A stretch of 61,955 nt of DNA. It comes from a virus. Its lineage: Duplodnaviria; Caudoviricetes. Location: the IMG/VR virus record IMGVR_UViG_3300028364_000001, positions 1 through 61,955 of that record; one strand, 5' to 3'. The stretch's first letter is position 1. Every line of letters starts with the position of its first letter. A program made the translations under genes and the position numbers. The notes under the pieces are model-generated. The model saw only the letters and a program-made list of their open reading frames with translations, was not told where the DNA came from and made no database searches. This document shows positions 11,924 through 28,022 of the stretch, in pieces.

Positions 11924-14900
11924 TCAGTAGTAGGCTGCACGTTTCGGGACATATTCGGTCTCGTCCTCATCCTCGTCTGTGGGCAGGCGGATAAACCCGC
12001 CCTGTCGGAACCTCGTCAGGGCCATCACTGCGGTATCCGCGAGGTCATCGTGGGCGCCGACCGGGAAACTCGCGATCTCCTCCACCAGCTCCTCGGCCCA
12101 ACGGGTCGTCGGCACCCAGACGATGCCTGCCAGCACGATATCTGCCACGGCCTGCATGCGCGCGAACTTGTTACCCGACCCACGGTGGGGGGTAAACTCC
12201 TGCAGCATCATGCCTGTGCGCCGCAATTCTTGAAACAGTGCCACCCCGGAGCTCTTTTTCTCCACGATGAACGCATCCGGCTCCCACTTCTGGTACAGCT
12301 CCGTGGCCAGCGCCCTCAGTTCAGGGTATTCGACCCGGCGCCGCACCGCGTCCAGCAGGATCAGGTTGTTCGTGCGCTCTTCCTCATGAAAAAACACGCC
12401 CCACGTGGTGATCGCGGTATAGTCGGCCTGTTCTTTCTGCTCCGCAGCAGCATCAAGTGCCATGATGATGTAATCCACCTCTGGTGGCTCGGTTCCCGTC
12501 CATATCCGCCACCATTCTCGTTTGATGAGCGCTGAACCTTCCGCCGTGGGGTCCTGCTGGTACTGGGCGTTCCACTGGAACGTGGGCATCGAGGCCTGCG
12601 TGCGGTGCAAGGCTGCCAGATCGAAGAACGCGGGCCACAACGCCTTCTCCTTGATCGTCCCATCAGGCTGCTTGATCTCCATGATGGCTGGAAACTCGAC
12701 CACCTCGTACTGATCGGCGTTGTCGTTCTGGGTCATGTCCTGCACGACTCGCCCCGTAAGGTCCAGGACATGCCAGCGAGTGTTATGGCTCACCAGCCCG
12801 TTCGCTATGAAGTTCTCCGTGCGGTTTATCTGGACATCGAACACTTCTTCCCGCCCTGCAGGGGTGATCGACTCAATCTGGTCTTCGGTGAAGTCGCAGG
12901 TACTCGGCAACCGCAAGGGCGGTCTCTGCAGTTTTTGCGTATCCGGCGGCAAGGTTGCAGTCGTTGCAGAGCAGGGCTCTGACATACCCTCCCTCGTGAC
13001 AGTGATCGACGCACAGTTTGTTGTTCCAGTGCGCCCGGGTGTTGTGCTTGCTGGGGGGTTGCTTGCAGATAGCACACTTGCCCTCTTGGGCGACCAGCAT
13101 CCTGTCGTGCTCCTCCATACTAAGCCCGTACCGGTGTTTAAGATGTATCCTGCGTCTGTCTTCGGGGCTCTGACTCCTCTTTCCAGATGCCCACAGGCTT
13201 TTGTTATAGTGGCTTCTGCAAAACCCTTTAGCTTTCGCAGGGGCATCACAGCCTTCGATAGAGCAGCTCTGGCCCACGTGCTTCCCCCAGTGACCCACAC
13301 CGCGCCGGGGCGCGTCGGGGTTCTTCCGGTGGTAGCAGTCGAAGGATTTGTGAGCCCCTCACTTGCTCCGCTTGGTTGTCGCGCTAGATGGGCGGTCGCA
13401 TCCTTCAGCGATACAACGAAATCCCCCGTCCTCAAGTCTTTCAGGCGTACCCATGCAGTCTCTCCCGTTTGTGTGCGGACCAAGAACGGATGTCGTTCGT
13501 TCGCCCTCACAACAATACCAGAAGTCATCTTGATTGCATATATGCAATCTATACCATTTGACTGATGGTTCACCACCTTCTCATAGTCTAGGCGCCCGTC
13601 GTCATATGTCGCAACGACGTCTCCGACGCGGATATCCCGCAGGGGCTTCCCGCGCCCGTCCTGCATGAGGACCGGGGTGTCGCCTGTCATGCACTGGACC
13701 AACGCCACGCAGCCCCCGGGCATGAGGCGTGTCCGCGCGCCGAAGGTGAACCATTGATATGCCTTGTCGAACACCTCGAAATTGCCCGCCAGCACGTCCT
13801 GCTCGGAGTGTGGGTCGTCGATGATCAGCATGTCCGCACCGCGCCCGGCCAGACTTGAGCCCACACCGGTGGCGTAATACTCGGACCCGTGGTTCGTGCT
13901 CCACCGGCCAGCCGACTTGGAGTCCTGTGCGAGGGTGATCCCTGCGAATATCTCCTGATACCGCGTGTCATTCATCAGGTTCCGCACCTTGCGGCCGAAG
14001 TCCACCGCCAGATCGGTGGTGTGGGACACCATCATGACCTTCTTGCCGGGGTTACGCCCAATGTACCACGCGGGGTAGTATATGGAGACAAGCTGCGAGT
14101 TGTGCGTGGGTGTCAGATTCCGGCCTACCAGATACAGCCCGTCCGGGCTGTCTACCTGAATGCAGTGCCCCACCTCCCCGTTGGGGTTCAGCCGGATAGC
14201 TGCGATTGCCTTCCTGCGCTGCGGGGCCAACCGTTTTATATGTTTGTGGGGGATGTGCACCGGTATATCAATGGTGGGCTGGAAACCCACATAATACACG
14301 ACTTGCCTGCCCACGATCCCGCTCGTCGATGTCGTTGGCGGTTGCTCATACATATAGGGCGCCTGCCCAAGCCCTGTCAGCATCTCCAGCAGGGAGTCCT
14401 TCAACGGGGCAGAACACGTGGCGATCCGCACGCGCCCGGTGCTGCGCTCGACGTGCCCGTCAGTGTCGATGAGCCCCGCCAAGAGATCGAGCCTCTGCTC
14501 CAGAGATGCCCTTATGTAGATGTCGGGTATGTGCTTGTTCCCCAACACCCCCACGTGCCGGAGAGTCTGTTTTATCCCTTGGTAGCAAAACCCTGCTGAT
14601 ATGACCCCGGTATCCTTGTGCACAGCCTCCCAAGTTACGCGAAACCCTCGGCGCTGCAGCTCTGCTCTAGGCTGCGGGTAGTCCGGGTGATATACGAAGT
14701 CAGGGTGCGTCGCCCGGCCGTCCCCTAACCAAACCCCCAAAAAGTATGGGTCCAGAGGCAGCTCTGCCACGGGAAACTCCAGAGGCGTGATTTCAGGTAG
14801 CTGGTATTGGAACCGATTGCCGTTGGTGAGGTTACGTGGCTGGCCAGCTGTGGGCCCGACCCTGCTTGGCTCTAGGAACCATTGGGTCTCCTGTGTTTCC

Positions 14901-15406
14901 CACACCCTTTTCGGGCGACTGTACACAGTCCACTCATGGGCCCCATGGCAGCGTATGGTATCCCCGTTGGTGAACTCCACCTCGTAGTCCGCAGGAGCGG
15001 TGTCGGACACTGCAAGCACCTCGACAGGTTCGCCCGACGGGTGAAACACATAGTCCCCTACCTGAAGCTCCCCGTGAGTTCTCCATCCGGCTGGTGTAAG
15101 GACGGGCGTGCTGTCTGCTACAAGTTTGCCGTGGCGAGGAGGCATGTTCACTGCCACCCGGTCCTTGGCGCCGTTATCCAGTGCCATAAGCTGGTCAGCG
15201 AGGATGCGGTGGTGTCGTCCCACCTTATAGTCAGGCTGCATATATTTGCAGAACGCGATCAAGTCGTCGTAGGCCGCTTGCCGGGCCGAGCGATCCTGCA
15301 GGTCGGAGACCATGGCCTCCACCTCCGCCGCCTCGTCGTGCGTCAGCTGGTCGATGTTTGCCAGCAAGGTGCGCAGCTCGGCTTCGGAGAACCCAACGTC
15401 AGACAT
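11924..15406 (-). CDS. terL: Terminase large subunit with two inteins (1160-aa precursor, about 514 aa spliced)
   Basis: Spliced Walker A MPPRHGK|S, Walker B LIIDDP, VQ|TRWH, nuclease-domain ALDAA and HDDLAD. Confidence 0.93.
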   Translation of the reverse strand: MSDVGFSEAELRTLLANIDQLTHDEAAEVEAMVSDLQDRSARQAAYDDLIAFCKYMQPDYKVGRHHRILADQLMALDNGAKDRVAVNMPPRHGKLVADSTPVLTPAGWRTHGELQVGDYVFHPSGEPVEVLAVSDTAPADYEVEFTNGDTIRCHGAHEWTVYSRPKRVWETQETQWFLEPSRVGPTAGQPRNLTNGNRFQYQLPEITPLEFPVAELPLDPYFLGVWLGDGRATHPDFVYHPDYPQPRAELQRRGFRVTWEAVHKDTGVISAGFCYQGIKQTLRHVGVLGNKHIPDIYIRASLEQRLDLLAGLIDTDGHVERSTGRVRIATCSAPLKDSLLEMLTGLGQAPYMYEQPPTTSTSGIVGRQVVYYVGFQPTIDIPVHIPHKHIKRLAPQRRKAIAAIRLNPNGEVGHCIQVDSPDGLYLVGRNLTPTHNSQLVSIYYPAWYIGRNPGKKVMMVSHTTDLAVDFGRKVRNLMNDTRYQEIFAGITLAQDSKSAGRWSTNHGSEYYATGVGSSLAGRGADMLIIDDPHSEQDVLAGNFEVFDKAYQWFTFGARTRLMPGGCVALVQCMTGDTPVLMQDGRGKPLRDIRVGDVVATYDDGRLDYEKVVNHQSNGIDCIYAIKMTSGIVVRANERHPFLVRTQTGETAWVRLKDLRTGDFVVSLKDATAHLARQPSGASEGLTNPSTATTGRTPTRPGAVWVTGGSTWARAALSKAVMPLRKLKGFAEATITKACGHLERGVRAPKTDAGYILNTGTGLVWRSTTGCWSPKRASVLSASNPPASTTPGRTGTTNCASITVTREGMSEPCSATTATLPPDTQKLQRPPLRLPSTCDFTEDQIESITPAGREEVFDVQINRTENFIANGLVSHNTRWHVLDLTGRVVQDMTQNDNADQYEVVEFPAIMEIKQPDGTIKEKALWPAFFDLAALHRTQASMPTFQWNAQYQQDPTAEGSALIKREWWRIWTGTEPPEVDYIIMALDAAAEQKEQADYTAITTWGVFFHEEERTNNLILLDAVRRRVEYPELRALATELYQKWEPDAFIVEKKSSGVALFQELRRTGMMLQEFTPHRGSGNKFARMQAVADIVLAGIVWVPTTRWAEELVEEIASFPVGAHDDLADTAVMALTRFRQGGFIRLPTDEDEDETEYVPKRAAYY
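12782..13693 (-). mobile_element. TerL intein 2 (304 aa, C...HN|T)
   Basis: CMTGDTPVLMQDG...ANERHPFL...VFDVQINRTENFIANGLVSHN|T; the centre has no in-frame endonuclease motifs. Confidence 0.9.
12873..13298 (-). CDS. Endonuclease VII-family homing endonuclease in an alternative frame inside TerL intein 2
   Basis: RYGLS.EE...M...Q.GKCAIC...LCVDHCH..G.VRALLC..CN...G; N-terminal CSIEGC...GFCRSHY zinc knuckle. Confidence 0.85.
   Translation of the reverse strand: MGHWGKHVGQSCSIEGCDAPAKAKGFCRSHYNKSLWASGKRSQSPEDRRRIHLKHRYGLSMEEHDRMLVAQEGKCAICKQPPSKHNTRAHWNNKLCVDHCHEGGYVRALLCNDCNLAAGYAKTAETALAVAEYLRLHRRPD
14099..15124 (-). mobile_element. TerL intein 1 (342 aa): class-3-like, in-frame LAGLIDADG endonuclease
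   Basis: Inserted in Walker A (GK|LVADSTP...THN|S); LGVWLGDG and LLAGLIDTDG; W (HEW), C (HCIQV) and T (THN) signature. Confidence 0.88.
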
Positions 15407-21152: not shown

Positions 21153-21431
21153 ATGAACTTCAAGACCCCAACTCTCGCGATCCTCGTCATCACTGCTGGC
21201 CACGTCATGGTCGGCCGGGCGCGGAGCAACGACGACGGCTTCGTCGAACTGTTCGACGCACGCACCATCCGCAAGTGGGGGACGGCCAACGGCCTGAACC
21301 AATTGTATGATGGTCCCACCAGCGACACGGTGCTGGATGCCAAGGCACCTCTCATCTTGGTGCCGAATATCCACATCCTTTTCACCCTGCCTGTGAACGA
21401 GAGCGCAGCATGGATCGAAGCACTGGCATAA
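21153..21431 (+). CDS. Small phage protein (DUF6948-like)
   Basis: G.V.VG......V.L..AR.IRKWGT..GL.QL..GP pattern. Confidence 0.65.
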   Translation: MNFKTPTLAILVITAGHVMVGRARSNDDGFVELFDARTIRKWGTANGLNQLYDGPTSDTVLDAKAPLILVPNIHILFTLPVNESAAWIEALA

Positions 21432-21625
21432 TGATCTGGGCGTTCTTGCGTCCGTTGGTGTGGCACAGGTCCCGATGGGGCGACGGCTACGGCGACGGCC
21501 ACGGCACCGGCTACGGCTACGGCTTCGGCTACGGCAACGGCTACGGCTACGGCGACGGCGACGGCAACGTCAACGGTAACGGCTACGGCGACGGCGACGG
21601 ATACAGCGGCGACGGCAACAACTGA
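21431..21625 (+). CDS. Gly-rich leader peptide, copy 2
   Basis: MIWAFLRPLVW...; TAATG overlap. Confidence 0.75.
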   Translation: MIWAFLRPLVWHRSRWGDGYGDGHGTGYGYGFGYGNGYGYGDGDGNVNGNGYGDGDGYSGDGNN

Positions 21626-21667: not shown

Positions 21668-22768
21668 ATGACACGAGCAAACGCAATCTACGACGTCAGC
21701 CTTGACCAGTGCGCAAGCCTGATCGAGGCCTCGGGCAGCACGGTGACCTACCTGCTGCAAGGCGGGATCGGTATCGGCAAGTCCGCTTTGCTGGGCCAGA
21801 TCGGCAAGAGCATGCCCGGCCACCTGCAGGTCTACTTCGACTGCACGACCAAGGATCTTGGGGACATCATGATCCCCAACCTTGCCGAAGCTGCGGGCGG
21901 CACGCCCTACGTGCGGTTCGCGACCAACGAAGAACTGGGCATGCACCTGTGCGACCAGCCTATCATCCTGATGATCGACGAGCTGGGCAAGGCCAACCCC
22001 TCGGTGAAGAACGCACTGACCCGCATCCTCTACGAGCGCAAGATGGCCGGGTATACGATGCACCCCGACAGTATCGTGTTCGCCACCACCAACCTCGGTG
22101 CCGAAGGCGTTGGGGATATGCTGCTGCCCCACCAGTGGAACCGGATCTCGGTGCTGACTGTGCGCAAGCCCGACCACATGGAGTGGCTCGAATGGGGTAT
22201 CAGCAACGGGATCGACCACACCCTGCTGGGCTGGGTCCGCGACAACCCGCAGCTGTTCCAGTCCTTCGAGGACGTCAACGACGCAGAGCAGAACCCCTAT
22301 ATCTTCCACCCCCGGGACCCCAGCCGCAAGGCGTTCGTGACCGGCAGATCGCTGGAGAAGGCCAGCCACATCATCAAGGCCACCAAGGGCAAGGTGGACG
22401 ACATGACGCTGACTGCCGCCCTGATGGGCACGCTGGGGGACCGCGCGGCGATGGACCTGATGGCCTTCGTGCGACTGGCCAACGACCTGCCCAGCCATGC
22501 CTCGATCAAGAACGACCCGCTCAACGCCAAGGTGCCCGCCTCGGCCGCCGCAACGTGCATGGTGGTGTACCGGGCCTTGTCTACCATGGAGGCCGACTGG
22601 GTGGACAACTGGATGATTTACGTTGAGAGGTTGGACACCGAGGCCCAAGGCCTGTTCGCCAACGGCGTGCGGTCGCCCAAGTACGCCAAGCAGTCGGTGG
22701 TGTTGCTCAACAAGAGCTTCACTCGCTGGGTCCAGAGCAGGGCTTACCTCTTCGGCGCGGATCAGTGA
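21668..22768 (+). CDS. MoxR-like AAA+ ATPase
   Basis: Walker A GGIGIGKS, Walker B LMIDE, ATTN sensor, TGRSLE. Confidence 0.85.
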   Translation: MTRANAIYDVSLDQCASLIEASGSTVTYLLQGGIGIGKSALLGQIGKSMPGHLQVYFDCTTKDLGDIMIPNLAEAAGGTPYVRFATNEELGMHLCDQPIILMIDELGKANPSVKNALTRILYERKMAGYTMHPDSIVFATTNLGAEGVGDMLLPHQWNRISVLTVRKPDHMEWLEWGISNGIDHTLLGWVRDNPQLFQSFEDVNDAEQNPYIFHPRDPSRKAFVTGRSLEKASHIIKATKGKVDDMTLTAALMGTLGDRAAMDLMAFVRLANDLPSHASIKNDPLNAKVPASAAATCMVVYRALSTMEADWVDNWMIYVERLDTEAQGLFANGVRSPKYAKQSVVLLNKSFTRWVQSRAYLFGADQ

Positions 22769-22769
22769 C

Positions 22770-22958
22770 ATGATCTGGTCCTTCCTGCGCCCGCTGGTGT
22801 GGTGCCTGTGCCGCTACGGTAGGGGCGACGACGCCCCTTTTGGGGACGGCTACTACGGCAGCAGCGGCGGCAACAGCTCTGGCGAAGGTTACAACTATGG
22901 GCATGGCGCCGGTGACCACTGCGATCTAGGCTGCGACTTCTACGGAGGTCGGGGATGA
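22770..22958 (+). CDS. Gly-rich leader peptide, copy 3
   Basis: MIWSFLRPLVW; starts 1 nt after the ATPase stop. Confidence 0.75.
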   Translation: MIWSFLRPLVWCLCRYGRGDDAPFGDGYYGSSGGNSSGEGYNYGHGAGDHCDLGCDFYGGRG

Positions 22959-23173
22959 TCTGGTCCTTCCTGCGCCCGCTGGTGTGGAGTGTCGCCCCAT
23001 ATGGCTCAGGCACTAGAGGCTTCCTCCACGGCGAAGGCTTTGGCGATGGTGGCGGTTACGGCGGCAACGGCGATGGCTGGGGCTACCACGACAGTATGGG
23101 CCGTGGCTTTGGTTACTACAACGGTGACGGGGCCGGGTACGGCCTCGGCGACAAGAACGACGACATGACTTAG
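22955..23173 (+). CDS. Gly-rich leader peptide, copy 4
   Basis: MIWSFLRPLVW; GGAGG RBS and ATGA overlap. Confidence 0.75.
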   Translation: MIWSFLRPLVWSVAPYGSGTRGFLHGEGFGDGGGYGGNGDGWGYHDSMGRGFGYYNGDGAGYGLGDKNDDMT

Positions 23174-23197: not shown

Positions 23198-23950
23198 ATG
23201 ATGGGACTTCGTATGCCGGACGTCAGGGGCGTCGGCACCTACGCGCAGGCCGCTGCACTGTTCGACAGGGCCAAGGAGCGCAAGAACCCCTACCACTCCG
23301 GCACACATGCCATACCCGGGCACAAGGTCACGTTCACAGGCCTGTCCAAGGCCGCCGACGGCACAATCAGATTCACCTATCACAGCACTGACGTGGTGGA
23401 GTGGCACCCCGACGACACCTGCACGCTGGACATCGGCTGGAAGAGCATAAGCACAGGCACGTTCGCTGATCGCTTTGCGCCTGTTGGGGTGGGCATCTAT
23501 GGAGCGTGCAAAGCCCTGCGTGTGGACGGCGTCTACTACAACCCACATGGCATTGTGCGCCTCGACGTGGAGGGACGGCTGACCCACGCCAGCGAAGACA
23601 CGCGCCCGATCCTTCAGGTGCGTGTAGACCGCAAGAAGGCAAAGGCTGCATCGGAGGAGTCTGGTCTCACGGCTTTCCTCGCATGGTACAAGCCCATGGC
23701 GGCCCTGCTGGGCAACGAGCAGATGCACAGGGAGAACCACTACAACTCGGACCTCGTTACGTCCTTGCTCTACAGGGATCAGTGGGAAAAGCTGCGCACC
23801 TGTAGCAGGCTTGCCGGTGCCCGGGCCCATGTCTCCGTCGTAGAGCGGGCTCTGCGCAAGGCCGTGTACGAGCGTTACGACGCCTACTACACCACGGAGC
23901 ACGCAAGCGCCCCCGATTACGGGTCGTTCACTGCGTGGACCCGGGAGTGA
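23198..23950 (+). CDS. Hypothetical protein (250 aa)
   Basis: AAGGA RBS; YH.TDVV.WHPD motif. Confidence 0.75.
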   Translation: MMGLRMPDVRGVGTYAQAAALFDRAKERKNPYHSGTHAIPGHKVTFTGLSKAADGTIRFTYHSTDVVEWHPDDTCTLDIGWKSISTGTFADRFAPVGVGIYGACKALRVDGVYYNPHGIVRLDVEGRLTHASEDTRPILQVRVDRKKAKAASEESGLTAFLAWYKPMAALLGNEQMHRENHYNSDLVTSLLYRDQWEKLRTCSRLAGARAHVSVVERALRKAVYERYDAYYTTEHASAPDYGSFTAWTRE

Positions 23951-24117
23951 TCTGGGCTTTCCTCCGTCCGCTGGTGTGGGCCAAGTACGCGTGGGACGGT
24001 GGCGGCGACGACTACCCTTTTGGGGACGGCTACTACGGCGACGGCGACGGCGACTGCTATGGCGAAGGTTACAACTATGGGCATGGCGCCGGTGACCACG
24101 ACGGAAACAGCAGATGA
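23947..24117 (+). CDS. Gly-rich leader peptide, copy 5
   Basis: GTG start, IWAFLRPLVW; GTGA overlap. Confidence 0.75.
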   Translation: MIWAFLRPLVWAKYAWDGGGDDYPFGDGYYGDGDGDCYGEGYNYGHGAGDHDGNSR

Positions 24118-24159
24118 CTTAGTCATCCCGACTAGGTCCAACCAAGAAAGGACGACCCC

Positions 24160-26319
24160 ATGTTTGGGAACGGAAAACTTACACCAGAGCAACGCCTCCA
24201 GAAGGCGGTCATTGCGATCATGCATCACGACAGATACCGCGCCTTGGCGGGGGTGCTGATGATCGGCAGTCGCAAGGTGGGCACCCATCTGGGTCGCACC
24301 GCTGTGGACACCGCCGCCACAAACGGCATGGACGAGATGTACAACCCCGATTTCATCACGTCGCTCAAGGACTCGGAGCTGCGGTTCCTCGTGCTGCACG
24401 AGAACTACCACAAGCTGTACAAGCACCTGACCACATGGCGGTGGATGTATCTGCGCCATAAGCAGGCGGCCAATGCTGCCTGCGTGGTCGGGGAGACCCT
24501 TATCACGATGGCAGACGGATCGTTTCGTGCCGCCGAAAACATTCGGGTTGGGGATAAGGTGCGGACCCCGTTTGGTCCTGCGCCCGTGCTCGCTGTCAAG
24601 GCCACTGACAACCGTCAAGTATGCGAACTTGACATGGGTATGGGATATAAACTACAATGTACCCCTGACCATAAACTACTGACGGATCGTGGATATGTCG
24701 AAGCCCAATGCCTCACAGAAGCGGATACAATCTACTTGGACGCCGGAGATGGACGCCTTTGTGAAGGAGAATCATGGCGTCATGCAGATCAAAGATATGG
24801 CCCCACACTTGGGGGTGACGGCAATGTCTGTGTACCACAGGCTGCGGAAGCTGGGCTTGGCGTCTACTCGGATGACCGTGAAACAGCAATCGCTGAAAGG
24901 CTTGGGTCTCTGGCAGCCTACGGACTGGGCGTACTTCGCCGGCTTGGTGGACGGGGAGGGCACGGTTACGTGCCAGATCACACAGGGCAAGTACCTGAGG
25001 CCAACACTATCCGTGACCAATACGAGCTACAGCTTAATGCTTTGGTTGGAGTCGCTGGGGATGTATTGTGTGCTGGCCCGAAACAACTACGGCAATATGT
25101 ACTGGAAGGCGGAGGTTTCGGGCTTCGGGATATTGCCGGTGCTGGAGGGGATACGCCCTTGGGTGAAGATACGGACCCGTCGCTACGATATACTCATGGA
25201 GATAATCCGCATCCGAACCTCGGCGGGCTACCGTTTCCAGCCGACTACCGCCATCATCTCCTTGTTAGCGGAATTGAAGGCCTTGAACCTGCGAGGCTCA
25301 CAGTTAGAAGATTCCTTGGCGAGAGCCGGAGAGTCTACGACATCACTACGCCCGCACAGTGTTTTGTTGCAAACGGGGTAGTCGTGCACAATTGCGATTT
25401 TGTCATCAACATCAAGCTGGTGGACGACAACAAGACTGACCGCTTCGCCACCATGACAGGGGGCCTGCTGATCGGCTGCTTCGACGAGAAATATAGAGAC
25501 TGGGACAGCGCTGCGGTGTTCCACGACCTGCTCAAGAACGCCAAGCAAGGCGGGGGTGGCGGCCAAGGCGAACCCGGCCAACCCGGCGAACCCGGCGAAG
25601 GCGAACCGGGCCAAGGCTTCGACGCCCACGACTGGGACGGGGCGCAGGACATGCCCGATGCTGACAAGCAGGCGCTGGCACGCGACATCGACGAGGCGAT
25701 CCGCCAAGGCGCGCTGATGGCAGGCAAGACCGGGTCAGGCGGTGACAGGTCACTTGATGATCTGATGCAGCCACAGGTGGACTGGCGCACGGCGCTGCGC
25801 GACTTCATCACCACGACCTGCGCAGGGTCTGACTTCTCCACGTGGAAGCGGCCCAACCGTCGCTTCATCGGCGCGGGCTACTACATGCCCAGTGGCATCA
25901 CGGAGCGTGTCAAGGATATCTGCGTGGCCGTGGACACCTCGGGGTCCATCAGAGGGCCGCAACTGGCATCGTTTCTGAGCGAGGTCCGGGGCATCGCCGA
26001 CTCCGTGCGGCCCGAGCGCATCCACCTGCTGTACTGGGACACGGCAGTGTGCCGCCACGAGGTGTATCTGGAGCAGGACCTGCACAACTTGGTCCAGTCG
26101 ACCAAGCCCGAGGGCGGCGGAGGCACCATGGTCGAGTGCGTGCCGGAGTTCCTCAACAAGATGGGGATCACCCCACAAGCGGTTATCGTGCTGACCGACG
26201 GCTACCTCGGCGGCAGCTGGGGCACGTGGACCTGTCCGGTCCTGTGGACCATCCTCGACAACAAGAGCGCCCGCCCTGACCACGGGGCAACGGTGCACAT
26301 CAAGGGTCACGAGCTGTGA
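24160..26319 (+). CDS. Metallopeptidase (HExxH) + VWA-like protein (DUF2201-like) with an intein (about 415 aa spliced)
   Basis: TAATNG, LHENYH, ANAA|CDFVIN after splicing, MIDAS DTSGS, GGGT, VLTDG. Confidence 0.88.
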   Translation: MFGNGKLTPEQRLQKAVIAIMHHDRYRALAGVLMIGSRKVGTHLGRTAVDTAATNGMDEMYNPDFITSLKDSELRFLVLHENYHKLYKHLTTWRWMYLRHKQAANAACVVGETLITMADGSFRAAENIRVGDKVRTPFGPAPVLAVKATDNRQVCELDMGMGYKLQCTPDHKLLTDRGYVEAQCLTEADTIYLDAGDGRLCEGESWRHADQRYGPTLGGDGNVCVPQAAEAGLGVYSDDRETAIAERLGSLAAYGLGVLRRLGGRGGHGYVPDHTGQVPEANTIRDQYELQLNALVGVAGDVLCAGPKQLRQYVLEGGGFGLRDIAGAGGDTPLGEDTDPSLRYTHGDNPHPNLGGLPFPADYRHHLLVSGIEGLEPARLTVRRFLGESRRVYDITTPAQCFVANGVVVHNCDFVINIKLVDDNKTDRFATMTGGLLIGCFDEKYRDWDSAAVFHDLLKNAKQGGGGGQGEPGQPGEPGEGEPGQGFDAHDWDGAQDMPDADKQALARDIDEAIRQGALMAGKTGSGGDRSLDDLMQPQVDWRTALRDFITTTCAGSDFSTWKRPNRRFIGAGYYMPSGITERVKDICVAVDTSGSIRGPQLASFLSEVRGIADSVRPERIHLLYWDTAVCRHEVYLEQDLHNLVQSTKPEGGGGTMVECVPEFLNKMGITPQAVIVLTDGYLGGSWGTWTCPVLWTILDNKSARPDHGATVHIKGHEL
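24481..25392 (+). mobile_element. Intein 3 (304 aa, C...HN|C)
   Basis: CVVGETLITMADG...CTPDHKLLT...VYDITT...FVANGVVVHN|C. Confidence 0.9.
24689..25381 (+). CDS. LAGLIDADG homing endonuclease with an N-terminal HTH, in the +1 frame inside intein 3
   Basis: WAYFAGLVDGEGTV...RPTLSVTNTS...; N-terminal WT.E.D..........MA.HLG.T..SV..R..KLGL. Confidence 0.85.
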   Translation: MDMSKPNASQKRIQSTWTPEMDAFVKENHGVMQIKDMAPHLGVTAMSVYHRLRKLGLASTRMTVKQQSLKGLGLWQPTDWAYFAGLVDGEGTVTCQITQGKYLRPTLSVTNTSYSLMLWLESLGMYCVLARNNYGNMYWKAEVSGFGILPVLEGIRPWVKIRTRRYDILMEIIRIRTSAGYRFQPTTAIISLLAELKALNLRGSQLEDSLARAGESTTSLRPHSVLLQTG

Positions 26320-26537
26320 TCTGGAGCTTTCTCAAGCCGCTGGTGTGGTGGGGTGACAACTACGGCGATGGCCGCAACGGAGCCGACGGGAACGGTTATG
26401 GCGACAGCATCTTCGCATATGGAGGCGATGGGACGGATAGCCATGGCTTCGAGTACGGCAATGGTGACGGCGTCGGCTACCACGACACTGAAGGTCGCGG
26501 CTTCGGCCGTGACAATGGGAACGGAGGAAGGTCATGA
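26316..26537 (+). CDS. Gly-rich leader peptide, copy 6
   Basis: GTG start, IWSFLKPLVW; GTGA overlap. Confidence 0.75.
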   Translation: MIWSFLKPLVWWGDNYGDGRNGADGNGYGDSIFAYGGDGTDSHGFEYGNGDGVGYHDTEGRGFGRDNGNGGRS

Positions 26538-26692
26538 TCTGGGCCTTCCTCAGACCGTTGGTGTGGTGCGAGACCCGCTACGGCGACGGCAACGGCTACG
26601 GCTACGGCGACGGCGACGGCAACGGCTACGGCGACGGCGACGGATACAGCGGCGACGGCGACGGCCGTGGTCGTGATGACTACCACAACTGA
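26534..26692 (+). CDS. Gly-rich leader peptide, copy 7 (52 aa, not in the ORF track)
   Basis: MIWAFLRPLVWCETRYGDGNGYG...; GGAGG RBS. Confidence 0.75.
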   Translation: MIWAFLRPLVWCETRYGDGNGYGYGDGDGNGYGDGDGYSGDGDGRGRDDYHN

Positions 26693-26971: not shown

Positions 26972-27795
26972 AACTTCCAGTATTCGACCGCAGCACTGCC
27001 CGCTGGGACCGCTTCCGGCGGTTCTACAACGAGCCCGAGCATAACCTGATCGTGTTCGAGAGCGGCGAGGTGATGCTCGCGTCGCGGGACTTCAAGCCCG
27101 ATCAGCGCGGGGTCAATCGCCCCCTTGGGCGGGGCGAGAGTGACCTGCGTGTGGTCAGCACCACCGACGGCGACTGCCCGGCATTGTCGCTTGGCAAGGA
27201 CAGCCTGACCCCAGAGAGCCTCGCGGTGCTCGCACTGTGCCGGCAGGACCCGACTGCGCTGGCAGCAAAGCCTCTGCCCAAGGTATGGATCGCCGAGGGT
27301 CTGTCACGGCAGCTGCTCGTCGACGCAAGCACCGGGCGCAGCGTGGGTATCGGTGGCGACAGGAGCGACAAGGGGCGCAACGCTGCGTGGCAGTGGGCAC
27401 CGTTCCCGGATGCGGAATACTACCGGCCCATGGCCTATATCCCCAGCCCACAGAGCAAGGCCGTCGGGGAGAACCTGAAGATCGCGGTGCCCGTAAAGCT
27501 GACCCCGGAGGAGAAGAAAGCCCTGAGCGACCTCCATGCGGCCTGCACCGCGTGGTGCGAGCTGTGCAGCTGGGACAGCGCGAAGATGGCACCGAAGTAT
27601 CACCGTGGCCGGTATGGCTACCGATACACGGGCGTTCGCTCCCTACACCAACCATGCCTGCCCAGCGAGTTGCCCGAGGGCGTGGAGTCGGAGCTCTCCG
27701 ATCTTGGGCCCGACCAGATCTTCCAGATCGCAACGCACGGGTTCGAACGCGCGACACACGATATGTGGGTAGAGTGCCTCTACGCAGCGATATGA
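26968..27795 (+). CDS. Hypothetical protein (275 aa)
   Basis: AGGAG RBS, ATGA coupling at both ends. Confidence 0.7.
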   Translation: MKLPVFDRSTARWDRFRRFYNEPEHNLIVFESGEVMLASRDFKPDQRGVNRPLGRGESDLRVVSTTDGDCPALSLGKDSLTPESLAVLALCRQDPTALAAKPLPKVWIAEGLSRQLLVDASTGRSVGIGGDRSDKGRNAAWQWAPFPDAEYYRPMAYIPSPQSKAVGENLKIAVPVKLTPEEKKALSDLHAACTAWCELCSWDSAKMAPKYHRGRYGYRYTGVRSLHQPCLPSELPEGVESELSDLGPDQIFQIATHGFERATHDMWVECLYAAI

Positions 27796-28022
27796 TCTGG
27801 GCGTTCTTGCGACCGCTGGTGTGGAACAGGTCCGCTGACGGCTTCGGCTATGGCAACAACCACGGCACCGGGGCGGGCAAAGGTGACCTCAACGGTTGGA
27901 ATAGCGGCAACGGCCAAGGAGAGGGGTACAGCTGGCACGTCGGCGACGGCTACGGCTACGGATATGGCTTTGGCGAAGGCGACGGTGGTGACTACGACGA
28001 CGGAAACGGAGGTGACCTATGA
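27792..28022 (+). CDS. Gly-rich leader peptide, copy 8
   Basis: MIWAFLRPLVW; ATGA overlap. Confidence 0.75.
   Translation: MIWAFLRPLVWNRSADGFGYGNNHGTGAGKGDLNGWNSGNGQGEGYSWHVGDGYGYGYGFGEGDGGDYDDGNGGDL

What the first reader, a model, noticed from the sequence alone, without database searches (positions are those of the whole stretch)
24481..25392. Intein whose LAGLIDADG homing endonuclease is overprinted in the +1 frame
Seen: the intein frame is open for 304 codons with intact splicing blocks (C1, TPDH, VYDI, HN|C), but its centre has no endonuclease motifs. The +1 frame (24689-25381, GTG or ATG at 24695) encodes a 230-aa HTH plus single-motif LAGLIDADG protein (WAYFAGLVDGEG). About 690 nt are therefore double-coding. 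Known: canonical inteins carry the endonuclease in frame, and single-motif LAGLIDADGs act as homodimers and are more typical of introns or free-standing genes. Inference: a free-standing endonuclease gene invaded a mini-intein and stops were avoided in the host frame, uncoupling endonuclease expression from splicing.
Basis: partly seen in the sequence, partly recalled or inferred. Interest (0 to 1): 0.85.

Follow-up and report, generated by a model that had tools for sequence, protein, structure and literature searches.

The report
A phage gene is interrupted by a self-splicing intein whose homing endonuclease is a separate gene read one base out of register inside the intein, a real and apparently still mobile arrangement that has recently been described for other inteins.

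Summary
Window 24481-25392 is a 304-codon class-1 intein in a phage DUF2201 metallopeptidase/VWA-like gene (24160-26319). Only residues 1-87 and 273-304 fold as a Hint domain. The 185 residues between them have no confident fold.

The +1 frame (ATG 24695 to TAG 25381, 228 aa) encodes an HTH plus single-motif LAGLIDADG protein. Its model has pLDDT 87.8 and matches I-CvuI, I-CreI and I-MsoI.

It is not a sequencing error. Four more contigs and three more database proteins carry a 304-aa intein at this site. The five DNA copies align without a gap, and four public runs show no indel.

Constraint switches frame. dN/dS is 0.08-0.14 in the intein frame over the N-splicing part. In the centre it is 0.09-0.16 in the +1 frame and 1.7-2.3 in the intein frame. 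Stops in the intein frame are avoided: 0 of 217 at-risk wobble positions are T, against 141 of 922 elsewhere.

The element looks mobile. It is 97.5% identical in exteins only 60% identical, and 42 of 42 other host homologues lack it. An exact intein-less allele coexists with it in one run.

Fourteen of 78 more distant relatives of the endonuclease sit in the same +1 register inside inteins of other host genes.

The kind is already described (Gorbalenya 1998 as cited, and preprints of 2025 and 2026). This is a new member.

The parts
24160..26319 (+). Host gene, 719 codons including the intein. It is a DUF2201_N putative metallopeptidase (HENYH motif) plus a DUF2201 VWA-like domain.
   Evidence: Pfam PF13203 E 4.6e-19 and PF09967 E 1.1e-15; phrog_1314 E 1.7e-74.
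24481..25392 (+). Intein, 304 codons in the host frame, class 1 (Cys1 ... His-Asn | Cys+1).
   Evidence: Pfam Intein_splicing scores 36.3 bits against a cut-off of 35.8. C1, T61, H64, H303 and N304 are invariant in 5 of 5 alleles. A contig in run X5 joins 24480 to 25393, which is an exact intein-less allele.
24481..24741 (+). N-terminal splicing (Hint) part, intein residues 1-87, including block B TPDH at 24661-24672.
   Evidence: AF2 block pLDDT is 57-85 with beta strands. Foldseek matches the gp41-1, MchDnaB-1 and Ssp DnaB mini-inteins. Substitutions peak at codon position 3 of this frame and dN/dS is 0.08-0.14.
24742..25296 (+). Read-through spacer of the intein frame, residues 88-272. It has no confident fold and is kept free of stops and indels only.
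   Evidence: pLDDT is below 50 for residues 88-272. Frame-0 amino-acid identity is 27-50% against 58-78% for the +1 frame (excluding the near-identical window-L002 pair). dN/dS in frame 0 is 1.66-2.27. GC by codon position is 0.75/0.50/0.43.
25297..25392 (+). C-terminal splicing part, intein residues 273-304 (blocks F and G: RVYDITT ... ANGVVVHN).
   Evidence: AF2 block pLDDT is 62-84 with beta strands. The residues are invariant in 5 alleles.
24695..25381 (+). Homing endonuclease gene in the +1 frame, 228 codons plus TAG.
   Evidence: Homologues of 57-78% identity are called as separate 228-229 aa genes. The profile search finds 2951 relatives at E<=1e-3. dN/dS in the centre is 0.09-0.16. GC by codon position is 0.49/0.42/0.76, against 0.62/0.44/0.83 in the exteins.
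24743..24850 (+). N-terminal three-helix HTH-like DNA-binding domain of the endonuclease (residues 17-52).
   Evidence: phrog_323 'transcriptional regulator' E 4.3e-9 on residues 3-65 of the 230-aa ORF from GTG 24689. AF2 helices at 17-26, 32-39 and 43-52 with pLDDT 85-94.
24917..25324 (+). Single-motif LAGLIDADG core (residues 75-210). The motif WAYFAGLVDGEG lies at 24926-24961.
   Evidence: The A1 profile hits I-MsoI at E 8.3e-6 and I-CvuI at 1.9e-3. Foldseek gives I-CvuI, I-CreI and I-MsoI at E about 1e-7 and TM (target) 0.60-0.72. D and E of the motif are invariant in 7 of 7 sequences.
24683..24697 (+). Presumed internal translation start. A GGAT/GGAG Shine-Dalgarno-like element lies 8 nt before ATG 24695, embedded in the intein codons T-D/E-R-G-Y-V.
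   Evidence: The ATG is kept in 5 of 5 close alleles. GGAG or AGGG lies 7-13 nt upstream in L003, L004 and L005, and an AGGGG-type element is present in L062-L064. Function is inferred.
24629..24658 (+). Promoter-like site TTGACA-18-TACAAT (11 of 12 matches), ending 36 nt upstream of the endonuclease ATG. This is a lead only.
   Evidence: One search found 1 site against 0.9 expected in shuffles. The -35 hexamer is kept in 4 of 5 alleles and the -10 hexamer is exact in 3 of 5. Coding constraint could explain the conservation.
25393..25395 (+). Cys+1, the first residue of the C-extein and a native residue of the host motif AN.A|CD[YF]VIN.
   Evidence: 40 of 42 intein-less homologues have Cys here.

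Best explanation
This is a functional, still mobile 'non-canonical' intein. A small class-1 Hint splicing domain of 87 + 32 residues interrupts a conserved motif (AN.A|CD[YF]VIN) of a phage DUF2201 metallopeptidase/VWA-like gene. The usual endonuclease insertion point of the Hint fold holds a complete gene of free-standing type. That gene encodes an HTH plus single-motif, I-CreI-like LAGLIDADG endonuclease and lies one base out of register (+1).

The host ribosome reads straight through it in frame 0. This produces a 185-residue unstructured spacer that is removed with the intein by protein splicing (inferred). Frame 0 can stay open cheaply. Its first codon position is the wobble position of the endonuclease gene. 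Every potential stop (T + AA/AG/GA) can therefore be removed by a synonymous change in the endonuclease (shown statistically).

The endonuclease is most likely made separately, by internal initiation at the conserved ATG 24695 behind a Shine-Dalgarno-like element (inferred). It would then dimerise through its LAGLIDADG helix (model only). It would cut intein-less alleles near the insertion site, so that repair copies intein and endonuclease together (inferred from the distribution).
For: **Real in both frames**
- The Hint fold covers only intein residues 1-87 and 273-304. Residues 88-272 have pLDDT below 50.
- The +1 protein model has pLDDT 87.8. Its best structural matches are I-CvuI, I-CreI and I-MsoI. 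Profile hits to the same enzymes appear.

**Not an artefact**
- L002, L003, L004 and L005 (endonuclease 96, 76, 78 and 60% identical in the search tables) keep the same +1 arrangement. The host frame is open over 704-724 codons in each.
- The 5 inteins align over 912 nt with 0 gap columns.
- P0156, P0157 and P0158 each have a 304-aa intein.
- Runs X3, X4, X5 and X8 show no inserted or deleted letters.

**Constraint switches frame**
- In the N-splicing part, differences peak at frame-0 codon position 3 (0.38-0.68).
- In the centre they peak at frame-0 position 1, which is the endonuclease wobble position (0.45-0.61).
- NG86 dN/dS, for the three pairs among the window, L003 and L004: 0.08-0.14 for the N-splicing part in frame 0, 1.66-2.19 for the centre in frame 0, and 0.09-0.16 for the centre in frame +1. 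Pairs with L005 give 1.76-2.27 for the centre in frame 0; their dS is saturated in most other comparisons.

**Stop avoidance**
- T at at-risk wobble positions is 0/40, 0/42, 0/44, 0/42 and 0/49. Elsewhere it is 28/188, 26/186, 30/184, 28/186 and 29/178.
- Pooled, this is 0/217 against 141/922, Fisher p = 2e-14.
- Free-standing relatives have T at 218 of 788 such positions.

**Mobility**
- Window against L002: the intein is 889/912 nt identical. The last 30 nt of the N-extein are 13/30 identical and the first 30 nt of the C-extein are 22/30. The exteins are 60% identical at the amino-acid level.
- 42 of 42 other viral homologues of the host gene lack the intein. These include L013, L014 and L040, which are 84-88% identical to the window's C-extein.
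- Run X5 holds a contig that skips exactly 24481-25392, at depth 27.6 against about 12.6 for the intein-bearing form.
- Run X8 holds the intein next to a different N-extein flank.

**Recurrence**
- 14 of 78 more distant viral loci have a relative of the endonuclease at +1 inside a long open frame with intein ends. The hosts are DUF2201 proteins, group-1 glycosyltransferases and others.

**Dimer model**
- ipSAE is 0.69 against a best control of 0.00. This mark was reached by 20 of 30 proteins solved as pairs of one chain and by 1 of 23 solved as single chains.
- The runs agree in at least 68% of contacts and the partner pLDDT is at least 81. The interface is residues 75-88, the LAGLIDADG helix.
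- I-CreI-type dimers are solved, so this pass may come from likeness to known structures.
Against: - No expression, splicing or cleavage data exist for this element. Everything about activity is inferred from sequence evolution and distribution.
- Pfam LAGLIDADG_3 scores only 14.2 bits against a cut-off of 22.5 on the +1 protein.
- The Shine-Dalgarno-like element in the window itself is weak (GGAT). The promoter-like site is not above chance by count, at 1 found against 0.9 expected.
- No pseudo-palindromic target was seen at the insertion site of the intein-less alleles. The best symmetry was 6 of 11 pairs. A strictly symmetric homodimer site is therefore not evident.
- How a 185-residue spacer affects splicing efficiency is unknown.
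- No mini-intein ancestor was found at this site, so 'invasion of a mini-intein' remains a hypothesis.
Confidence: 0.85

Rival explanations
1. Decaying relic. An originally in-frame endonuclease domain was thrown out of frame by two compensating indels. It is now a dead passenger, and the intein is only inherited vertically.
For: No activity data exist. All 8 alleles found have the same length, so no intermediate forms are known.
Against: - The +1 frame is under strong purifying selection (dN/dS 0.09-0.16).
- It is intact, with its own conserved ATG, in 5 lineages down to 60% identity.
- Its relatives are free-standing 200-245 aa genes, not in-frame intein domains.
- The intein is near-identical in exteins that are 60% identical, and it is absent from the closest extein relatives.
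Confidence: 0.05
2. Assembly or sequencing artefact. Two compensating indel errors hide an ordinary in-frame LAGLIDADG intein.
For: None was found.
Against: - Five independent contigs from different records align without any gap over 912 nt.
- Three further database proteins have the same 304-aa intein.
- Contigs of four runs from four studies show no inserted or deleted letters.
- Stop avoidance in frame 0 would be pointless if frame 0 were not read.
Confidence: 0.01
3. Programmed ribosomal frameshifting. Ribosomes shift +1 near 24690-24750 and shift back near 25300-25380, so the endonuclease is made as an in-frame domain of the intein.
For: The two frames overlap at both junctions, so a shift is geometrically possible. 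The +1 frame is closed by TGA at 24680-24682 and reopens just before the junction.
Against: - Two separate efficient shifts would be needed.
- Frame 0 is kept free of stops along its whole centre, which is needed only if it is translated.
- The endonuclease keeps its own ATG and Shine-Dalgarno-like element.
- A single-motif enzyme must pair with a second copy (model only).
- No slippery site was looked for systematically.
Confidence: 0.03
4. True dual function. The frame-0 centre (residues 88-272) also encodes a functional polypeptide segment, for example a regulatory linker of the intein.
For: - The spacer has exactly the same length in 8 of 8 alleles.
- AF2 draws two long helices (133-153 and 174-210), at low confidence.
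- A 27-nt block at 25339-25365 is invariant in 25 of 27 columns at all codon positions. This shows that dual constraint does exist at the 3' overlap.
Against: - pLDDT is below 50 throughout residues 88-272.
- Frame-0 identity is 27-50% where the +1 protein is 58-78% identical.
- Frame-0 dN/dS is 1.66-2.27.
- No Pfam family matches the centre.
- The fixed length is explained by the endonuclease frame and the need to return to frame.
Confidence: 0.05

Closest known systems
Cyanobacterial dnaX intein with an out-of-frame LAGLIDADG endonuclease (Phillips, DeSimone and Gogarten, bioRxiv 10.64898/2026.09.14.751524; passages and section 17 read). The paper credits the first proposal to Gorbalenya 1998, which is not held here.
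   Same: - The endonuclease is on the same strand and in an overlapping frame.
- The in-frame centre is disordered.
- A confident LAGLIDADG model comes from the other frame.
- Shine-Dalgarno motifs lie before the endonuclease ORF.
- dN/dS is low in the endonuclease frame and raised in the extein frame.
- The distribution is sporadic, and secondary invasion of a mini-intein is proposed.
   Different: - The host is a phage DUF2201/VWA gene, not bacterial dnaX.
- The enzyme here is a single-motif, I-CreI-like protein with an N-terminal HTH.
- Mini-intein alleles are known for dnaX, and none was found here.
- Whether the two endonucleases are homologous could not be tested, because the genome-contig scan failed.
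Actinobacteriophage non-canonical inteins (Gosselin, Arsenault and Gogarten, bioRxiv 10.1101/2025.01.02.630785; abstract, passages and section 15 read).
   Same: - These are phage inteins whose endonuclease lies in a separate reading frame.
- The in-frame centre has no recognisable fold.
- Relatives of the endonucleases are free-standing genes.
- There is evidence of continued transfer.
[quoted passage not shown]
   Different: - Their LAGLIDADG cases are antisense.
- Their only same-strand out-of-frame case is endonuclease VII-like.
- Their hosts are DNA polymerase, minor capsid, terminase and thymidylate synthase, not DUF2201 or glycosyltransferase.
[quoted passage not shown] 2009, PMC2677866; abstract and passages read).
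   Same: A free-standing-type endonuclease gene sits at the endonuclease insertion point of an intein. Its 3' end overlaps the C-intein coding region (6-69 bp there, about 85 nt here).
   Different: There the host gene is broken into two ORFs and is joined by trans-splicing. Here the host frame stays open and the intein is contiguous.
I-CreI, I-MsoI and I-CvuI, homodimeric single-motif LAGLIDADG enzymes of group I introns.
   Same: They share the fold and the motif. The predicted dimer forms through the LAGLIDADG helix.
   Different: Sequence identity is 16-22%. This protein has an extra N-terminal HTH domain and sits in an intein rather than an intron. No Rfam family matches 24000-25700.
ShiLan-type out-of-frame HNH insertion in phage DNA methylases (Arsenault et al. 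2025, PMC11855218; abstract read).
   Same: An endonuclease ORF is hidden in another frame of an insertion that is stop-free in the host frame.
   Different: That element has no splicing domain. Here the Hint domain is intact.

Membership tests
Class 1 intein (Hint fold, Pfam Intein_splicing PF14890) | N-terminal Cys/Ser nucleophile, block B T-x-x-H, and a C-terminal His-Asn followed by Cys/Ser/Thr +1 | tested here: met
   C1, T61/H64 (TPDH), H303-N304 and Cys+1 are present. The intein residues among them are invariant in 5 of 5 alleles.
Class 1 intein (Hint fold, Pfam Intein_splicing PF14890) | Hint fold and family score | tested here: met
   PF14890 scores 36.3 bits against a cut-off of 35.8 on the intein alone, and 33.2 bits (below the cut-off) on the whole protein. 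The AF2 model of the termini matches the gp41-1, MchDnaB-1, Ssp DnaB and Mtu RecA mini-inteins at E 3e-6 to 2e-5.
Class 1 intein (Hint fold, Pfam Intein_splicing PF14890) | Precise in-frame insertion relative to intein-less alleles of a conserved host motif | tested here: met
   42 of 42 homologues read ...AN.[AS]|CD[YF]... without an insert. A contig in run X5 skips exactly 912 nt.
Class 1 intein (Hint fold, Pfam Intein_splicing PF14890) | Protein splicing activity | not testable with these tools
   Splicing is inferred only from conservation of the catalytic residues and from the persistence of the host gene.
LAGLIDADG homing endonuclease, single-motif homodimeric type (I-CreI-like) | One LAGLIDADG helix ending in an acidic metal-binding residue | tested here: met
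   The motif AYFAGLVDGEG is present. D88, E90 and G91 are invariant in 7 of 7 sequences, and the motif is nearly invariant in 42 sequences. The assignment of the catalytic residue is from recall.
LAGLIDADG homing endonuclease, single-motif homodimeric type (I-CreI-like) | Alpha-beta-beta-alpha-beta-beta-alpha core fold | tested here: met
   The model has pLDDT 87.8 with elements H75-88, E89-96, E100-109, H112-120, E124-129, E135-142 and H144-156. Foldseek gives probability 1.00 to I-CvuI, I-CreI and I-MsoI.
LAGLIDADG homing endonuclease, single-motif homodimeric type (I-CreI-like) | Pfam family score above the curated cut-off | tested here: not met
   PF14528 scores 14.2 bits against a cut-off of 22.5. 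A profile of the family reaches I-MsoI at E 8.3e-6.
LAGLIDADG homing endonuclease, single-motif homodimeric type (I-CreI-like) | Homodimer | tested here: inconclusive
   The model supports pairing: score 0.69 against a best control of 0.00. The mark was reached by 20 of 30 solved pairs of one chain and by 1 of 23 single chains. The pass may come from likeness to solved I-CreI dimers.
LAGLIDADG homing endonuclease, single-motif homodimeric type (I-CreI-like) | Site-specific cleavage of the empty allele | not testable with these tools
   No clear pseudo-palindrome is present at the site; the best symmetry is 6 of 11 pairs.
Non-canonical intein with an out-of-frame endonuclease (Gorbalenya 1998 as cited; preprints of 2025 and 2026) | Splicing domain in the extein frame, an unfolded centre, and an endonuclease ORF with a confident fold in another frame | tested here: met
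Non-canonical intein with an out-of-frame endonuclease (Gorbalenya 1998 as cited; preprints of 2025 and 2026) | Purifying selection follows the endonuclease frame in the overlap | tested here: met
Non-canonical intein with an out-of-frame endonuclease (Gorbalenya 1998 as cited; preprints of 2025 and 2026) | Sporadic distribution, and intein and extein histories in conflict | tested here: met
Fractured gene / split intein with an intervening endonuclease gene (Dassa et al. 2009) | Host gene broken into two ORFs at the intein | tested here: not met
   The host frame is open through the intein in the window and in L002-L005.

The most novel reading that the evidence does not exclude
The +1 nesting is not a one-off accident. 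It may be the heritable signature of an old and successful lineage of intein-endonuclease composites in environmental phages.

A homodimeric, single-motif HTH-LAGLIDADG gene is carried out of frame in every case. The unit has moved between at least four host gene families and about seven insertion sites: two in DUF2201, two in group-1 glycosyltransferases, one in a DegT-like aminotransferase and two in unknown hosts. Through all of this it kept the register.

Two reasons could favour that register. First, all host-frame stops can be removed by synonymous wobble changes in the endonuclease. Second, separate translation lets the enzyme dimerise free of the splicing precursor. A one-motif enzyme fused in frame could not easily do that.
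Probability: 0.35. Interest if true: 0.65.

Novelty: new member of a known kind. Interest (0 to 1): 0.5.

Why it matters
This is a clean and unusually well-replicated natural example of an intein and its endonuclease encoded in two overlapping frames. The data are five gap-free alleles down to 60% identity, plus 14 more distant cases in other host genes.

Three points follow from it.

- The host frame can be kept open purely by codon choice in the nested gene.
- Such inteins still appear to be moving between phages.
- They are easy to mistake for decaying inteins or mini-inteins. That affects intein surveys and phage annotation.

It also supports the 'splicing domain first, free-standing endonuclease second' view of intein origins. 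It offers a compact splicing domain of 119 residues, and a new HTH-LAGLIDADG enzyme with a defined candidate target, for experimental work.

It does not open a new category. The architecture has been in print since 1998 (as cited) and was re-described in 2025 and 2026.

Tried and rejected
**Searches that found nothing or little**
- DNA search of the region against GenBank phages (distant mode): no match.
- tblastn of the endonuclease against the same collection: no match at E 1e-5. At E 0.05 there were 23 records, and 0 of them cover at least 80% of the query. They are weak hits to free-standing LAGLIDADG or 'HNH' genes of Gordonia, Caulobacter, Mycobacterium and Streptomyces phages. No cultured relative was found.
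- Rfam scan of 24000-25700 at E<=0.1: 0 matches. There is no sign of an intron.
- Other copies in the genome: the endonuclease is single-copy.
- Mini-intein or differently sized alleles at this site: 3 hits among 45 candidates, all with a 304-aa intein. The search is word-based, so this does not show absence.
- Literature: three searches were run. None listed a paper on an intein in a DUF2201/VWA gene, but no search used those words, so I do not claim it is unpublished. Supplements were closed. The supplementary tables of the 2025 preprint may list related cases.

**Analyses that were inconclusive**
- Palindrome scan of the empty site in L013, L014 and L040: best 6 of 11 pairs, not informative.
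- Promoter scan: one 11-of-12 site against 0.9 expected by chance. It is kept only as a lead.
- Phylogeny of 35 endonuclease sequences. These were 17 nested and 18 free-standing, chosen from the loci with the longest ORFs; the other loci were left out. Only the quick tree finished. The nested label needs 4 changes against a shuffled mean of 11.9, and 0 of 500 shuffles were as low. Starred branches force at least 2 changes. Nine long branches make the placements unsure. A single origin is therefore neither shown nor excluded.
- T-avoidance in the 12 nested distant loci tested (0 of 681) holds by construction, because those loci were picked for the open frame. Only the contrast with free-standing relatives (218 of 788) is informative.

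**Sequencing runs**
- No RNA holder was listed for the stretch, so nothing can be said on expression.
- 24 rows in 24 studies hold at least part of the stretch. 6 hold half of the sampled words or more, and 2 of those may be the source. Only X3, X4, X5 and X8 were laid.
- Some bins in X3, X4 and X8 had no cover. I draw nothing from those bins.

Full report
**What is there**

The window is a complete 61,955-bp virus record with direct terminal repeats. Gene 24160-26319 (+) encodes a 719-residue protein. It has a DUF2201_N putative metallopeptidase domain (HENYH motif) and a DUF2201 VWA-like domain. It lies about 1.4 kb downstream of an ATPase gene at 21668-22768 (phrog_1297).

Codons 108-411 (24481-25392) are an intein. 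It begins CVVGET, has TPDH as block B and ends RVYDITT...ANGVVVHN, followed by Cys. Pfam Intein_splicing scores 36.3 bits on the intein alone, against a cut-off of 35.8.

The +1 frame is open from 24683 to TAG 25379-25381. It encodes an HTH-like domain followed by WAYFAGLVDGEG.

**Both frames encode something real, but in different places**

An AlphaFold2 model of the frame-0 intein was built on an alignment of 5 alleles.

- It is confident only for residues 1-87 and 273-304 (block pLDDT 57-85, all beta strands).
- Residues 88-272 are below 50.
- The confident part matches solved mini-inteins: gp41-1, MchDnaB-1, Ssp DnaB and Mtu RecA, at E 3e-6 to 2e-5.

The +1 protein was modelled on 42 homologues.

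- Mean pLDDT is 87.8.
- It has a three-helix N-terminal domain and an alpha-beta-beta-alpha-beta-beta-alpha core.
- The best structural matches are the homodimeric single-motif enzymes I-CvuI, I-CreI and I-MsoI. E is about 1e-7, probability 1.00, and TM normalised to the target is 0.60-0.72.
- A sequence profile reaches I-MsoI at E 8.3e-6.
- Pfam LAGLIDADG_3 alone is below its cut-off, at 14.2 against 22.5 bits.
- PHROGs gives an HTH family at 4.3e-9 and an endonuclease family at 2.8e-7.

The folded part of the endonuclease (residues 17-210, 24743-25324) sits almost exactly in the unfolded spacer of the intein (24742-25296). Real two-frame overlap of folded parts is about 47 nt at the 5' end. 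At the 3' end about 85 nt of the ORF, mostly its low-confidence tail, overlap the C-splicing part.

**It is not an error**

The endonuclease has close homologues that gene callers called as separate 228-229 aa genes: 6 proteins at E<=0.001 among 424 candidates (alignment).

I recovered DNA for one viral contig (L002) and for metagenome contigs L003, L004 and L005. L006 is partial.

- In all four complete loci the endonuclease is at +1, and the host frame is open stop-to-stop over 705, 714, 724 and 704 codons.
- The five inteins are each 912 nt and align with no gap column. Divergence reaches about 40%.
- Three more host proteins from the protein database also have a 304-residue intein.
- Contigs of four public runs from four studies, laid on 24300-25600, show no inserted or deleted letters.

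**Which frame is under selection**

GC by codon position in the centre is 0.49/0.42/0.76 in the +1 frame. This is the pattern of the exteins (0.62/0.44/0.83). In frame 0 it is 0.75/0.50/0.43.

Pairwise differences tell the same story.

- In the N-splicing part (nt 1-214) they peak at frame-0 codon position 3 (0.38-0.68 of sites).
- In the centre (nt 275-849) they peak at frame-0 position 1, which is the endonuclease wobble position (0.45-0.61).

Nei-Gojobori dN/dS for the three pairs among the window, L003 and L004:

| Region and frame | dN/dS |
|---|---|
| N-splicing part, frame 0 | 0.08-0.14 |
| Centre, frame +1 | 0.09-0.16 |
| Centre, frame 0 | 1.66-2.19 |

Pairs with L005 give 1.76-2.27 for the centre in frame 0. 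Most of their other comparisons are saturated in dS.

Amino-acid identity in the centre is 27-50% in frame 0 and 58-78% in the +1 frame (excluding the near-identical window-L002 pair). The frame-0 centre is therefore a spacer. Its only visible constraints are 'no stop' and 'no indel'.

**Stop avoidance**

A frame-0 stop needs T at an endonuclease wobble position followed by a codon that starts AA, AG or GA.

- In the five loci, T occupies 0 of 40, 42, 44, 42 and 49 such positions. Elsewhere it occupies 28/188, 26/186, 30/184, 28/186 and 29/178.
- Pooled, this is 0/217 against 141/922, Fisher p = 2e-14. The window and L002 are near-copies, so there are four effective lineages.
- Permuting synonymous codons leaves frame 0 open in 0.14-1.06% of trials per locus and in 135 of 20000 for the window's 230-codon ORF.
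- Free-standing relatives have T at 218 of 788 such positions. The avoidance is therefore not a family habit.

This frame relation makes the read-through cheap. Every stop can be removed without changing the endonuclease.

**Evidence that the element moves**

- Window against L002: 889 of 912 intein nucleotides are identical. The last 30 nt of the N-extein match at 13 of 30 and the first 30 nt of the C-extein at 22 of 30. The exteins are 60% identical as protein.
- Of 45 viral loci found with the window's C-extein, 42 cover the junction. All 42 lack any insert and read ...AN.[AS]|CD[YF].... L051, L052 and L054 start too late to cover the junction and were dropped.
- 40 of those 42 have the Cys. 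They include L013, L014 and L040, which are 84-88% identical to the window's C-extein.
- In run X5 one contig joins 24480 to 25393 (912 nt skipped) at depth 27.6. The intein-bearing contigs are at about 12.6.
- In run X8 a contig carries the intein (37 differences, 0 gaps) next to an N-extein flank unlike the window's.

So empty and occupied alleles coexist, and the intein has recently crossed between diverged hosts. That the +1 protein is the agent is inferred.

**How the endonuclease is probably made**

ATG 24695 is conserved in the window and in L002-L004. L005 uses an ATG 6 nt further on. GTG 24689 is not conserved.

GGAG (GGAT in the window) lies 8 nt upstream, inside the intein codons for T-D/E-R-G-Y-V. 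Relatives L062-L064 have an AGGGG-type element 7-9 nt before their ATG.

In this clade (the window, L002-L005 and L062-L064) the ATG lies 34-40 nt after the start of block B. The stop lies 8-11 nt before the intein end.

A promoter-like TTGACA-18-TACAAT site at 24629-24658 is partly conserved. It is not above chance by count.

A two-copy model of residues 66-215 pairs through residues 75-88, the LAGLIDADG helix. The score is 0.69 against a best control of 0.00. The mark was reached by 20 of 30 proteins solved as pairs of one chain and by 1 of 23 solved as single chains. The runs share at least 68% of contacts, and the partner pLDDT is at least 81. Dimers of this family are solved, so the pass may reflect likeness only.

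**The arrangement recurs in the family**

The profile search of 1.84 billion representatives found 2951 relatives at E<=1e-3 and 202 at E<=1e-10. Most of the single-stretch, full-length matches among the 150 listed are about 170-290 aa long. The long hits match mostly through repeated copies of the HTH part, and I saw no in-frame intein form among the 150.

A scan of viral contigs with the 42-sequence profile gave 79 loci. One of them is the L002 contig again.

- In 14 of the other 78 (L062-L071, L073, L081, L102, L129), the relative (22-47% identical in the search table) lies at +1 inside a same-strand open frame of 592-1041 codons.
- None of the 78 had the relative at +2 inside a comparably long same-strand open frame.
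- The translations show intein ends (C... and ...HN|C/S) and a junk centre.
- Pfam on 10 of the 14 hosts gave DUF2201_N plus DUF2201 in 4, group-1 glycosyltransferase in 4, and only Intein_splicing in 2. Intein_splicing reached E<=0.001 in 8 of the 10.
- L064, L069, L102 (a DegT-like aminotransferase by eye) and L129 were read by eye only.
- The insertion sites differ: two in DUF2201 and two in the glycosyltransferases.
- Other relatives are truly free-standing, for example L007-L009, L012 and L079.

A quick tree clusters the nested forms but does not settle one origin against several.

**Comparison with what is known**

The architecture is in print.

[quoted passage not shown] It proposes invasion by free-standing genes and predicts that such inteins are under-reported.
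- The 2026 preprint on the cyanobacterial dnaX intein describes a LAGLIDADG enzyme in an overlapping '+2 ORF'. It reports Shine-Dalgarno motifs, frame-dependent dN/dS and sporadic distribution. It credits the first proposal to Gorbalenya 1998.
- Fractured genes are the split version of the arrangement.

The locus here meets every defining feature of that kind that I could test. It differs in three ways.

- The host gene is a phage DUF2201/VWA gene.
- The enzyme is an HTH plus one-motif, I-CreI-like protein.
- The same register appears across several host genes in uncultured phages.

**Verdict**

It is a new member of a known kind. Confidence is 0.85 that this is a functional, mobile out-of-frame intein-endonuclease composite. 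Interest is 0.5: it is a very clean case with a useful family-wide extension, but it is not a new category.

Noticed in passing
window 11924-15406 (-), inner ORF 12873-13298 (-): The terminase large subunit-like gene (1160 codons; Terminase_6C, Intein_splicing and LAGLIDADG_3 by Pfam) appears to hold two inteins. One has an in-frame LAGLIDADG domain. In the second (about residues 569-875) the centre looks like junk in frame and overlaps a same-strand 141-aa ORF at offset +2. That ORF is Recombination endonuclease VII (PF02945, E 4.3e-16). This is the 'type D' architecture of the 2025 preprint, so the genome carries two different out-of-frame intein endonucleases.
   Followed up: partly
window 21431-21625, 22770-22958, 22955-23173, 23947-24117, 26316-26537, 26534-26692, 27792-28022 (+): Seven paralogous small ORFs (52-76 aa) lie between the genes around the finding. 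Each starts with [MV]IW[SA]FL[RK]PLVW and continues as a Gly/Asp/Tyr/Asn-rich tail. Their function is unknown.
   Followed up: partly
window 25339-25365: This 27-nt block in the 3' overlap encodes DITTPAQCF in frame 0 and TSLRPHSVL in frame +1. It is invariant in 25 of 27 columns across five alleles that differ at up to 60% of wobble sites elsewhere. Either there is dual protein constraint or the sequence has a role at the nucleotide level.
   Followed up: no
L072 1458-3822: A relative of the endonuclease (1974-2699) lies between two ORFs. These look like the N-terminal (HETMH ... MWNLVTD) and C-terminal (VWA-like) halves of a DUF2201 gene. No Hint sequence is visible, so this is a host gene of the same family split by a free-standing endonuclease rather than by an intein.
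   Followed up: partly
L067 1181-4303: This DUF2201 host gene has two inteins. One carries the +1-frame endonuclease at the AN.A|CD site. The second is canonical, with an in-frame LAGLIDADG (WLAGMYDGEGY), and lies further downstream.
   Followed up: no
hit H1, Mycobacterium phage DotProduct 42213-42710: A weak tblastn match of the LAGLIDADG core (E 3e-4, 26% identity) lies under a gene annotated as DNA methyltransferase. This may be another hidden out-of-frame endonuclease.
   Followed up: no
L128 17-1381 (-): In a contig of 38% GC, a 455-codon antisense frame is open across a free-standing relative of the endonuclease. The part opposite the endonuclease looks like junk and there are no intein motifs. 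It is probably an upstream extension of a neighbouring gene's frame.
   Followed up: partly
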